NCBI GenBank assembly: GCA_024572335.1
Contig: GCA_024572335.1_3052.1
Direction: 5' to 3' (one strand)
DNA length: 64,000 nucleotides
Source of the DNA: a phage
Shown here: piece after piece, positions 29,441-30,675 of the stretch
How the letters are laid out: the number at the start of each line of letters is the position of its first letter
Numbering within the stretch: position 1 is the stretch's first letter
The notes under the pieces: generated by a model
Database searches by the model: none
Told to the model about the DNA's origin: nothing
What the model saw: only the letters and a program-made list of their open reading frames with translations
Translations under genes and position numbers: made by a program

Positions 29441-29467
29441 AACCTTTCGGCTAGGGCTAAGAATGTT
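29441..29467 (-). terminator. intrinsic terminator, copy B of a duplicated 31-bp element
   Basis: minus-strand GCCCUAGCC-GAAA-GGUUGGGGC + UUUUU; one substitution relative to 29986-30012. Confidence 0.65.
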
Positions 29468-29939
29468 ATTTGATTTGTTTAGCAGACCAAATGCGGTCTT
29501 TAATAATTTTTTGGATGTCTTCAACATACTCAAGAGAGTGAGCATGTGGGTTATCTTTGAAACTATAAGCACGAGCTAACTTTTGACCTTCAGTTTTGAT
29601 TACTAAAAGCTCTTTAAGGATAGCTTCATATTTGGAGATAATTCCTTTAACAATATTTTTCTCTTGTGCGACTTTAGGATCTGCTTTAGGAGCAGGTTTA
29701 CCCGAAGCCTTTGCAAAAGCAGCGCCAGTAGCAACTAAACTTTTCCAGGCCATACTAACTGCATTTCCCGTAAATCCTTCTGCTTTCATGTCGCGAGCAA
29801 ATTGGAATCGTGATTCATCAGAAGCATCTTTATAGGAATATTTACCCGCTGCAATGGCTGCTTTTGCGACAGCTTGAATTTCGGTGCTAGACGCTTCATT
29901 TAACACCGCTTCATTTAAAAATTGAGTATATGATTTCAT
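29466..29939 (-). CDS. candidate packaged internal protein with variant capsid targeting sequence
   Basis: N-terminus MKSYTQFLNE|A (variant of MKTYQEFIAE); own TATAAATA late promoter 29976-29983 and AGGAAA SD; flanked by duplicated terminators. Confidence 0.6.
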   Translation of the reverse strand: MKSYTQFLNEAVLNEASSTEIQAVAKAAIAAGKYSYKDASDESRFQFARDMKAEGFTGNAVSMAWKSLVATGAAFAKASGKPAPKADPKVAQEKNIVKGIISKYEAILKELLVIKTEGQKLARAYSFKDNPHAHSLEYVEDIQKIIKDRIWSAKQIK

Positions 29940-29975: not shown

Positions 29976-29983
29976 TATTTATA
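29976..29983 (-). promoter_or_regulatory. late promoter (TATAAATA) of the CTS-protein gene
   Basis: minus-strand TATAAATA about 37 bp upstream of ATG 29939. Confidence 0.55.
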
Positions 29984-29985
29984 CT

Positions 29986-30012
29986 AAAAAGCCCCAACCT
30001 TTCGGCTGGGGC
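29986..30012 (-). terminator. intrinsic terminator, copy A, ending the tRNA/stable-RNA transcription unit
   Basis: minus-strand GCCCCAGCC-GAAA-GGUUGGGGC + UUUUU. Confidence 0.65.
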
Positions 30013-30018
30013 TAAGCC

Positions 30019-30320
30019 TTGCGGCAACCTTGTCGGGGTTCCACCTGCTAAGGCAAGTGTTTGTACGAAACGCCGGGATTCGAACCCGGTTATCAAGCAG
30101 TTGACGCTACTCAATATTTTTAAAAGGCCATATCTCGACCATATCCGAACGTTCCGTCAAAAACGCTACTCGGCTTACGGCAAAGATATTTCCTCGAATC
30201 GATAATTCGGTGCGCCGTTTCTGCTGTGATATAAGGGGACATTAACAAAACATAAAGATTTATTAATGCCAGTCCTTAAACAGGGAACATCAGTCCGACG
30301 ACTTACCGGTAGCGACCCGG
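30019..30320 (-). ncRNA. candidate small stable RNA(s) with a tRNA-like T-arm (compare T4 species 1/2 RNAs)
   Basis: non-coding 300 bp between an ORF and terminator; perfect T-arm CCGGG-TTCGAAT-CCCGG at 30071-30090 but no pairing acceptor stem or anticodon arm. Confidence 0.35.
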
Positions 30321-30324
30321 TTTC

Positions 30325-30675
30325 TTAATATTCTTTTAAAGCATCAATCTGTTCACGGCGTTTACGCCATAAATCAATTGCTTCATACGCAGATTCAGCA
30401 TTTCGAATTAGCCGGCATTTATGTAAAGACTTATGATTTTGATATTGTGTAGATAATGGAATTGTATCTAAAAGGTCTTTACGATCAAAGTATTCGTAAC
30501 CATCTAAACCAAATGAACGATTTTTGAGAAATTGCCAATGGCCAAATTCATTTTCAACATAAACATAATCTGCATGCTGATAAAGTAAATTAATTACACG
30601 TTCAGAAATAGCAGTATCATTATGATTAAAATAGAATGTTAAATCATGAACTACTAAATAAACATTACCTTTCAT
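30325..30675 (-). CDS. hypothetical protein (116 aa) between the tRNA cluster and the stable-RNA region
   Basis: ATG 30673-30675 (complement) after GAGGAAA SD; the ORF-track TTG start at 30723 would overlap tRNA-Arg. Confidence 0.45.
   Translation of the reverse strand: MKGNVYLVVHDLTFYFNHNDTAISERVINLLYQHADYVYVENEFGHWQFLKNRSFGLDGYEYFDRKDLLDTIPLSTQYQNHKSLHKCRLIRNAESAYEAIDLWRKRREQIDALKEY

What the first reader, a model, noticed from the sequence alone, without database searches (positions are those of the whole stretch)
30019..30320. Non-coding stretch with an isolated tRNA-like T-arm: candidate small stable RNAs
Between ORF 30325-30675 and the terminator at 29986-30012 there are about 300 nt without a credible ORF. 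The stretch contains a perfect T-arm (CCGGG-UUCGAAU-CCCGG, 30071-30090 on the minus strand) but no acceptor stem or anticodon arm that I can pair. T4 encodes two tRNA-like stable RNAs of unknown function next to its tRNA genes; this may be their counterpart or a decayed tRNA.
Basis: partly seen in the sequence, partly recalled or inferred. Interest (0 to 1): 0.4.

Follow-up and report, generated by a model that had tools for sequence, protein, structure and literature searches.

The report
T4 stable RNAs rnaD and rnaC
The non-coding stretch holds this T4-like phage's copies of two small stable RNAs, rnaD and the tRNA-like rnaC, which have been known in phage T4 for fifty years and still have no known function, so the finding is real but not new.

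Summary
Window 30019-30320 (minus strand) has no credible ORF and contains a perfect tRNA-type T arm, at 30073-30089 rather than 30071-30090.

The stretch is the orthologue of phage T4 rnaD (species 2 RNA, about 30328-30209) and rnaC (species 1 RNA, 30202-30064). A conserved 50-nt trailer and the intrinsic terminator of the tRNA operon (30013-29985) follow. rnaC is 136/139 identical to T4 rnaC, and RB3 and T4 records annotate both genes at the homologous positions.

"Decayed tRNA" and "no acceptor stem" are wrong.

- **rnaC fold:** covariation across six or more phage genera supports a four-arm, tRNA-like fold. It has a 7-bp acceptor stem with an invariant tandem U.U, stacked on the T arm.
- **rnaC loops:** two invariant hexaloops, UUGACG and CGUCAA, are mutually complementary. 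Both change together (A-U to G-C) in Klebsiella Marfavirus phages, which also encode a true 3' CCA.
- **rnaD fold:** a small 5' hairpin plus a rod, also supported by covariation.

Neither RNA is in Rfam. Function remains unknown. An adaptive SNP reported in phage BW-1 repairs an rnaD base pair.

Novelty: already known. Interest: low to moderate.

The parts
30209..30328 (-). rnaD (T4 species 2 RNA) orthologue, about 120 nt. The 5' end overlaps the stop codon (30327-30325) of the upstream ORF. The exact ends in this phage are unmapped.
   Evidence: Mapped from the RB3 and T4 annotations. It is 104/121 identical to T4 rnaD and scores 152.5 bits with covariance model R2.
30305..30321 (-). rnaD P1 hairpin: 5-bp stem ACCGG/CCGGU with the invariant 7-nt loop GUCGCUA.
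   Evidence: The closing pair covaries A-U/G-C. In distant homologues the whole stem is replaced while the pairing is kept (helix 1: 5 of 5 pairs show compensatory change).
30210..30302 (-). rnaD rod. P2 is GUCGUCG (30302-30296) paired with CGGCG(C)AC (30217-30210). P3 is UGUU (30289-30286) paired with ACAGCA (30227-30222; C at 30224 is unpaired), followed by an invariant CCC bulge. The central arm 30280-30229 is variable.
   Evidence: The central arm exists in three unrelated sequence types (T4/RB3, JS98, T2) that all fold as a hairpin.
30203..30208 (-). Spacer GAAUUA between rnaD and rnaC.
30064..30202 (-). rnaC (T4 species 1 RNA) orthologue, 139 nt, a tRNA-like four-way junction.
   Evidence: It is 136/139 identical to T4 rnaC. 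MFE z-score is -3.8. The consensus structure has 45 pairs, 22 of them with compensatory change.
30195..30201 (-). rnaC acceptor-like stem, 5' strand CGAUUCG, which pairs with 30072-30066.
   Evidence: The third pair is A-U in 10 sequences and G-C in 19. The tandem U.U is invariant.
30125..30194 (-). rnaC arm in the D-arm position: a 3-bp AGG/CCU stem closing a long irregular hairpin. Its apical hexaloop UUGACG lies at 30160-30155.
   Evidence: helices 2-4.
30091..30116 (-). rnaC arm in the anticodon-arm position: 10 bp with hexaloop CGUCAA (30106-30101), not a 7-nt anticodon loop. The loop is complementary to UUGACG.
   Evidence: In helix 6, 9 of 10 pairs show compensatory change. In loop-loop helix 5, all 6 pairs form in all 29 sequences, and one pair is A-U in 25 and G-C in 4 (the Marfavirus clade).
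30073..30089 (-). rnaC T arm: CCGGG-UUCGAAU-CCCGG.
   Evidence: The middle stem pair is U-A in 15 sequences, G-C in 13 and A-U in 1.
30064..30072 (-). rnaC acceptor 3' strand CGUUUCG plus the annotated 3' tail UA. The genome continues CAA, so the encoded end is U-ACA rather than U-CCA.
   Evidence: Marfavirus homologues encode U-CCA.
30014..30063 (-). Conserved 3' trailer with two small hairpins: CACUUGC-CUUA-GCAGGUG at 30059-30042 and AACC-N7-GGUU at 30040-30026.
   Evidence: It is nearly invariant across Tequatro-, Mosig- and Dhakavirus sequences, and it follows rnaD directly where rnaC is absent (JS98, AnYang, IME341).
29985..30013 (-). Intrinsic terminator of the tRNA/rnaD/rnaC transcription unit.
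   Evidence: The stem covaries between phages.

Best explanation
The stretch encodes the orthologues of bacteriophage T4 rnaD (species 2 RNA) and rnaC (species 1 RNA), followed by a conserved trailer and the terminator of the tRNA operon.

Shown here:
- Both are conserved structured RNAs, not ORFs or pseudogenes.
- rnaC is a tRNA-like four-way junction. A 7-bp acceptor stem with an invariant tandem U.U stacks on a canonical T arm. A long hairpin replaces the D arm. A 10-bp arm with a hexaloop replaces the anticodon arm.
- The two apical hexaloops are complementary and covary.
- rnaD is a 5' hairpin plus a long rod with invariant internal loops.

Inferred biogenesis: both RNAs are co-transcribed with the ten upstream tRNAs, for example from the late-promoter motif at 31868-31861. 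They are then excised by the host tRNA-maturation enzymes. RNase P would cut at the 5' side of the rnaC acceptor/T minihelix, which also releases rnaD. Endonuclease cleavage plus 3' trimming would set the other ends.

Function is unproven. My best guess is that they act as stable protein-binding RNAs, with rnaC as a tRNA mimic or decoy for a tRNA-recognising host or phage factor. I think this more likely than a role as translation adaptors or base-pairing sRNAs.
For: Identity:
- The 351-nt query is 100% identical to Shigella phage ESH35 and matches 806 phage records.
- RB3 (KM606994) annotates rnaD and rnaC under the match. T4 NC_000866 annotates rnaC at 70908-71046 and rnaD at 71053-71171, downstream of tRNA-Arg.
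- Identity to T4 is 136/139 for rnaC and 104/121 for rnaD.

Structure:
- rnaC has 45 pairs, 98.3% of cells paired, and 22 pairs with compensatory change. Slid controls give 1-6 such pairs, and 0 of 500 shuffles reach the observed value.
- The extended 29-sequence set has 50 pairs including the loop-loop helix, 27 with compensatory change.
- rnaD has 14 of 22 pairs with compensatory change.

Context:
- In other genera, homologues sit between tRNA genes with tRNA-like spacing. In KaAlpha, rnaC fills the gap between tRNA-Trp and tRNA-Gly. Distant rnaD homologues start 2-5 nt after a tRNA CCA end.
- A TATAAATA late-promoter motif lies upstream of the cluster, and a terminator lies downstream.

Literature:
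- RNAC and RNAD are detected as late RNAs by Northern blot and RNA-seq in T4, with function unknown (PMC9697503, PMC3014915).
- The only convergent SNP in BW-1 lines evolved on ECOR34 lies in rnaD (PMC12685909). I map it to a repaired C-G pair in the apical stem.

Against a role as adaptor: ARAGORN and the Rfam tRNA model do not call rnaC, and there is no 7-nt anticodon loop.
Against: - No expression or end-mapping data exist for this particular phage.
- Here rnaD is preceded by an ORF rather than a tRNA, so its 5' end may differ from T4's.
- The processing enzymes are inferred from the structure and from my recollection of 1970s-80s T4 work (Abelson, McClain and Apirion laboratories), which I could not retrieve.
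- The decoy or protein-binding function has no direct support.
- Some lineages replace the T-loop consensus with UGCAUGC or UGCAUUC. This weakens the idea that canonical T-loop recognition is essential.
- The loop-loop covariation rests on one clade, so probably one evolutionary event.
Confidence: 0.9

Rival explanations
1. The T arm is the remnant of a decayed tRNA gene, a pseudogene drifting at the end of the tRNA cluster.
For: It has an isolated perfect T arm and lies next to ten tRNA genes. There is a weak tRNA-Sec match (16.4 bits against a gathering score of 47, E=3). ARAGORN calls a 95-nt 'tRNA-Met' inside the UFV01 homologue.
Against: Sequence and structure are conserved across Tequatro-, Mosig-, Karam-, Kanagawa-, Winkler-, Moon- and Marfavirus phages. 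There are 22-27 compensatory pairs and invariant loops. The non-tRNA parts, namely the long arm and the hexaloops, are the most conserved. The T4 RNA is stable and abundant (PMC9697503).
Confidence: 0.02
2. The stretch encodes small proteins, as annotated in several GenBank records that list 2-3 'hypothetical proteins' under the match.
For: ESH35, ACG-C40, Marfa and other records annotate CDSs here. ORFs of 34-53 aa exist.
Against: The ORFs start mostly with TTG. They differ in frame, length and presence among close homologues and are absent in JS98-type sequences. The substitution pattern is compensatory base-pairing rather than codon-like.
Confidence: 0.02
3. rnaC works by RNA-RNA pairing through its two invariant hexaloops, either as an intermolecular kissing dimer or multimer or by pairing to another RNA. 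On this view it is not a protein-binding tRNA mimic.
For: UUGACG and CGUCAA are perfectly complementary in all 29 distinct sequences. They change together to UUGGCG and CGCCAA in Marfavirus. By my own rough estimate of arm lengths, an intramolecular contact would need a sharp bend in the long arm.
Against: There is only one covarying clade. No target was searched, because 6 nt is too short for genome-wide prediction. The acceptor/T minihelix is equally invariant, and pure base-pairing does not explain that.
Confidence: 0.2
4. The RNAs are merely cis-acting processing or stability modules of the tRNA transcript, serving as punctuation or a 3' protective cap, and the stable products are by-products.
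For: They are always embedded in tRNA arrays on the same strand. In T4-like phages they lie at the 3' end, just before a conserved trailer and the terminator.
Against: In Karam-, Winkler- and Kanagawavirus phages, rnaC sits in the middle of arrays, or after an ORF, and not at the 3' end. Loop sequences irrelevant to RNase P are invariant. An rnaD stem-repairing SNP was selected on a semi-permissive host (PMC12685909).
Confidence: 0.15

Closest known systems
Bacteriophage T4 rnaC (species 1 RNA, T4s001)
   Same: It is 136/139 nt identical. It occupies the same position and strand downstream of the tRNA cluster and rnaD, with the same trailer and terminator.
   Different: Three substitutions only.
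Bacteriophage T4 rnaD (species 2 RNA, T4s002)
   Same: The 5' 48 nt and the 3' 25 nt are conserved, and the fold is the same.
   Different: The central arm is closer to RB3 than to T4, and overall identity to T4 is 104/121. In T4 and RB3, rnaD starts 1-2 nt after tRNA-Arg. Here, as in T2, BW-1 and ESH35, a 116-aa ORF (phrog_3355, the 'trna.1' ORF of T2L) is inserted between them (PMC2330249). The last two 3' nucleotides read CG here and CA in T4.
Canonical tRNA (Rfam RF00005)
   Same: rnaC has a 7-bp acceptor stem stacked on a 5-bp T stem with a UUCGAAU loop. It has a four-way junction and lies inside a tRNA operon. Marfavirus homologues even encode N-CCA.
   Different: There is no 7-nt anticodon loop. 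The D arm is replaced by a ~70-nt hairpin. There are no nucleotides at positions 8/9. The acceptor stem carries a tandem U.U. The 3' end is U-ACA. tRNA finders do not call it.
RNase P-excised tRNA-like small RNAs (mascRNA/menRNA) and tRNA-like domains of tmRNA and bacterial Y RNAs (YrlA)
   Same: The concept is shared: an acceptor/T-arm mimic that lets the tRNA-processing machinery excise or recognise a non-adaptor RNA.
   Different: There is no sequence or model similarity. mascRNA scores 14.2 bits on the T arm only (E=9.6), and tmRNA and YrlA do not match at all. The resemblance is functional analogy recalled from my own knowledge, not family membership.

Membership tests
T4 rnaC / species 1 RNA | Sequence homology to T4 rnaC over its full length | tested here: met
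   136/139 identical. The window sequence is one of the sequences model R1 was built from.
T4 rnaC / species 1 RNA | Location on the tRNA-cluster strand, downstream of the tRNAs and rnaD and upstream of the operon terminator | tested here: met
T4 rnaC / species 1 RNA | Conserved secondary structure shared with homologues | tested here: met
T4 rnaC / species 1 RNA | Accumulates as a stable ~140-nt RNA in infected cells | not testable with these tools
   Shown for T4 itself by Northern blot (PMC9697503), but not for this phage.
T4 rnaD / species 2 RNA | Sequence and structure homology to T4/RB3 rnaD | tested here: met
   104/121 identical to T4. About 98% identical to RB3 over the 346-nt BLAST match covering rnaD, rnaC and trailer (97.7%; pairwise alignment). 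Structure covariation.
T4 rnaD / species 2 RNA | Immediately follows the 3' end of a tRNA gene | tested here: not met
   Here, and in T2, BW-1 and ESH35, a 351-nt ORF separates tRNA-Arg from rnaD. This is a known natural variant of the locus, so it does not affect homology.
Canonical tRNA | Cloverleaf with a 7-nt anticodon loop, detected by tRNA finders | tested here: not met
   ARAGORN makes no call at 30064-30328. The Rfam tRNA model gives no hit, and tRNA-Sec scores 16.4 bits against a gathering score of 47.
Canonical tRNA | Acceptor stem plus T arm forming a 12-bp stack | tested here: met
   with a tandem U.U in the acceptor stem.
Canonical tRNA | 3' N-CCA end, either encoded or added | tested here: not met
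   The encoded end is U-ACA in the window and most genera. It is U-CCA only in Marfavirus. Post-transcriptional addition cannot be tested here.
tmRNA | tRNA-like domain plus a tag-peptide reading frame | tested here: not met
   ARAGORN and Rfam make no tmRNA call.

The most novel reading that the evidence does not exclude
rnaC is a tRNA mimic whose two invariant hexaloops form a covarying kissing interaction. That interaction would either lock the RNA in a fixed shape or join copies into dimers or multimers. Through its acceptor/T minihelix, which carries a true CCA end in Marfavirus, rnaC would act as a decoy or inhibitor of a host tRNA-directed enzyme such as a tRNA-cleaving defence nuclease. 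rnaD would be a second host-interaction RNA whose fold affects host range, as the BW-1 stem-repairing SNP suggests.
Probability: 0.15. Interest if true: 0.7.

Novelty: already known. Interest (0 to 1): 0.25.

Why it matters
As a genome feature it is ordinary. Every T4-type phage carries these two RNAs, and T4 and RB3 annotate them.

It matters in three smaller ways:
- **Annotation.** Most GenBank records leave the region blank or annotate spurious 'hypothetical proteins' or tRNAs on it. Rfam has no family, so automatic pipelines cannot recognise it.
- **An old open question.** The function of T4 species 1 and 2 RNAs has been open for about 50 years. The covariation-backed structures, the loop-loop pair, the CCA-bearing Marfavirus variant and the mapped adaptive SNP give concrete mutants to test.
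- **Reach.** The families extend well beyond Tequatrovirus.

Tried and rejected
- **Rfam.** Gathering and E-value searches found nothing meaningful in the stretch, because no family exists for these RNAs.
- **Loose hexaloop pattern on IMG/VR.** It gave 56 loci, but only 7 of the new ones were confirmed by model R1. The rest were chance matches.
- **Bacterial and archaeal genomes.** Two pattern matches, both rejected by the model.
- **E. coli genomes.** No match, so no host homologue.
- **Literature.** I searched for functional studies and for the original species 1/2 sequencing and RNase P/III/E processing papers. Only statements of 'unknown function' are held. Miller 2003 is not held.
- **An early inference I corrected.** I first thought Karam- and Kanagawa-type phages carry rnaC only. 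Model R2 finds divergent rnaD there too.
- **rnaD-rnaC complementarity.** The rnaD P1 loop is complementary to rnaC GUAGCG. I judged this consistent with chance, since about 4 such 6-mers are expected, and did not pursue it.
- **Neighbouring ORFs.** Pfam and PHROGs give only families of unknown function for the two flanking ORFs.

Full report
**1. The observation**

The window is a T4-type phage genome. On the minus strand, ARAGORN and Rfam find ten tRNA genes in the order Gln, Leu, Gly, Pro, Ser, Thr, Met(CAU), Tyr, Asn, Arg, at 31522-30694.

Downstream lies a 116-aa ORF at 30675-30325. After it comes about 300 nt that contains only short, mostly TTG-initiated ORFs. An intrinsic terminator follows, with a stem at 30013-29990 and a T run.

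The motif GGTTCGAATCC, allowing up to 1 mismatch, occurs nine times in the window. Eight copies are in the tRNAs and one, an exact match, is here. Shuffles give 0.71 expected.

**2. Identity**

A blastn search of 29980-30330(-) against 50,697 phage records hits 806 records, and 680 of them cover at least 80% of the query. The best hit is 100% identical (Shigella phage ESH35). Almost all hits are Tequatrovirus and relatives.

The RB3 record annotates ncRNA rnaD ('species II RNA') and rnaC exactly under the match. The T4 reference annotates rnaC (70908-71046, 'species 1 RNA') and rnaD (71053-71171, 'species 2 RNA') just downstream of tRNA-Arg.

Transferring these annotations through pairwise and multiple alignments gives the following map on the minus strand:
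- rnaD at about 30328-30209
- a 6-nt spacer
- rnaC at 30202-30064
- a 50-nt trailer at 30063-30014
- the terminator

Identity to T4 is 136/139 for rnaC, 104/121 for rnaD and 73/79 for the trailer plus terminator.

The window differs from T4 and RB3 in one respect. The 351-nt ORF (phrog_3355, unknown function) lies between tRNA-Arg and rnaD. The same arrangement occurs in T2, BW-1 and ESH35. It corresponds to one of the two extra ORFs described for the T2L tRNA region (PMC2330249).

**3. rnaC structure**

The MFE fold has a z-score of -3.8. I aligned 24 homologues from Tequatro-, Mosig-, Kanagawa-, Karam- and Winklervirus phages (alignment A4).

RNAalifold predicts 45 pairs, 22 of which have compensatory changes. 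In the pair count, 98.3% of cells are paired. None of 500 shuffles reaches the observed values, and slid controls give 1-6 compensatory pairs against 22.

The fold is a four-way junction with these elements:
- **Acceptor-like stem.** Seven base pairs, 30201-30195 with 30072-30066: C-G, G-C, A-U or G-C (covarying), an invariant tandem U.U, C-G, G-C.
- **T arm.** It is stacked directly on the acceptor stem, and its middle pair occurs as G-C, U-A and A-U.
- **D-arm position.** A 3-bp AGG/CCU stem closes a ~65-nt irregular hairpin capped by the hexaloop UUGACG (30160-30155).
- **Linker.** An A-rich single strand.
- **Anticodon-arm position.** A 10-bp arm capped by the hexaloop CGUCAA (30106-30101).

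The encoded 3' end is U-ACA. Some lineages replace the T-loop consensus with UGCAUGC or UGCAUUC. So rnaC is tRNA-like in its acceptor/T half, but it cannot be an adaptor. ARAGORN and the tRNA model do not call it.

**4. A loop-loop pair in rnaC**

The two hexaloops are invariant and exactly complementary. To look for variation, I scanned IMG/VR with a pattern anchored only on the acceptor and T-arm sequences. This recovered the Klebsiella Marfavirus clade: Marfa, EI and about 24 records.

In that clade, loop 1 reads UUGGCG and loop 2 reads CGCCAA. This is a compensatory A-U to G-C change. The same clade encodes U-CCA at the 3' end.

On the 29-sequence alignment A8, the six loop-loop pairs form in 100% of sequences, and one pair is A-U in 25 and G-C in 4. 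The whole 50-pair structure has 27 compensatory pairs.

This rests on one clade, so probably one evolutionary event, and I treat it as suggestive. Whether the contact is intra- or intermolecular cannot be decided here.

**5. rnaD structure**

Eighteen close homologues (alignment A5) support three elements:
- a 5-bp P1 hairpin at 30321-30305, with the invariant loop GUCGCUA
- a closing helix P2, GUCGUCG with CGGCG(C)AC
- an inner helix P3 next to an invariant CCC bulge

The central arm exists in three unrelated sequence types (T4/RB3, JS98, T2) that each fold into a hairpin. The last two 3' nucleotides vary (CA, CG, AG, CU), so the 'CCA' of T4 rnaD is not a conserved feature.

A covariance model (R2) finds divergent homologues in Karam- and Kanagawa-like genomes, with E-values from 2e-7 to 0.1. 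These always begin 2-5 nt after a tRNA CCA end, and they have P1 replaced by other stems with a GACG loop. On the model-fitted alignment, 14 of 22 pairs show compensatory change. A fitted alignment leans towards the model, so this count is somewhat generous.

**6. Distribution**

- rnaC homologues lie between tRNA genes. In KaAlpha, rnaC sits between tRNA-Trp and tRNA-Gly. In Virsaitis27 and Kc304 it sits between tRNA-Ile and tRNA-Trp.
- Dhakavirus phages (JS98, AnYang, IME341) and Providencia phage PSTCR6 have rnaD without an adjacent rnaC.
- Model-confirmed rnaC occurs only on T4-like phage contigs in IMG/VR and in metagenomes.
- None was found in 185,579 bacterial and archaeal genomes or in 5,426 E. 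coli genomes.

**7. How it works**

What is shown: these are two conserved structured RNAs in a tRNA operon, bounded by a TATAAATA late-promoter motif upstream (31868-31861) and a terminator downstream.

From the literature: in T4, RNAC and RNAD accumulate late and have unknown function (PMC9697503, PMC3014915).

What is inferred: excision by the host tRNA-maturation machinery. RNase P would cut at the rnaC minihelix. RNase E-type cuts and exonuclease trimming would set the other ends. This matches my recollection of the classical T4 work, which I could not retrieve.

Functional clue: PMC12685909 reports a single convergent SNP, at BW-1 position 164264 (T to C), in all lines adapted to ECOR34. 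I map it to an A-to-G change in the apical stem of the T2-type rnaD arm. It converts CACAG/CUAUG, which has a C.A mismatch, into CACAG/CUGUG, the T2 sequence. The predicted fold returns to the family fold, with MFE going from -25.9 to -31.0 kcal/mol.

So rnaD structure appears to matter on some hosts. My working hypothesis is that both RNAs bind proteins and that rnaC is a tRNA mimic or decoy. I hold this with low confidence.

**8. Verdict**

The value added here is fivefold: covariation-supported structures, the loop-loop pair, the CCA-bearing variant, a wider distribution, and the note that Rfam and most annotations miss these genes.

Noticed in passing
window 30325-30675 (-): A 116-aa ORF (phrog_3355, unknown function, no Pfam match) is inserted between tRNA-Arg and rnaD. 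Its stop codon overlaps the homology-mapped 5' end of rnaD. T2, BW-1 and ESH35 have the same insertion; T4 and RB3 do not. T4 has the segB homing-endonuclease gene elsewhere in the cluster instead.
   Followed up: partly
L076 (phage BW-1, OR125554.1) position 965, which is record position 164264: The convergent adaptive SNP reported in PMC12685909 maps to the apical stem of rnaD. It repairs a C.A mismatch to C-G, reproducing the T2 sequence and restoring the family fold.
   Followed up: yes
L098 1501-1646 (Klebsiella phage Marfa); L093 (EI); L091; L092: The Marfavirus rnaC homologues carry compensatory changes in both hexaloops (UUGGCG and CGCCAA) and encode a genuine U-CCA 3' end. The records annotate them as 'hypothetical protein' CDSs with ribosome-binding sites.
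   Followed up: yes
L024 1136-1230 (Enterobacter phage UFV01); also hits H28 and H44: ARAGORN calls a 95-nt 'tRNA-Met(CAT)' inside the rnaC homologue. Other records annotate 'tRNA-Lys' or 'tRNA-Phe' over rnaC. These are probably false tRNA calls caused by the acceptor/T-arm mimicry.
   Followed up: partly
L005 1426-1506 (Erwinia phage Virsaitis27): An unannotated ~80-nt sequence between tRNA-Ile and rnaC begins GGGAGUU, ends AGCUCCCACCA and contains a T-arm-like hairpin. ARAGORN does not call it. It may be a degenerate or unusual tRNA.
   Followed up: no
window 30014-30063 (-): The 50-nt trailer between rnaC and the terminator is almost invariant across Tequatro-, Mosig- and Dhakavirus phages. 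It is retained directly after rnaD in phages lacking rnaC. It forms two small hairpins. Its role is unknown; it may be a 3'-processing signal.
   Followed up: partly
window 29976-29983 (-) and 29466-29939 (-): A T4 late-promoter motif, TATAAATA, lies immediately after the terminator T run. It precedes a 157-aa ORF (phrog_2280, unknown function) that occupies the position of e.8 in T4.
   Followed up: no
window 30161-30169 and 30107-30115 (-): The 9-mer GAGUAGCGU occurs twice in rnaC, each time leading into one of the two complementary hexaloops. This hints that the two arms arose by an internal duplication.
   Followed up: no
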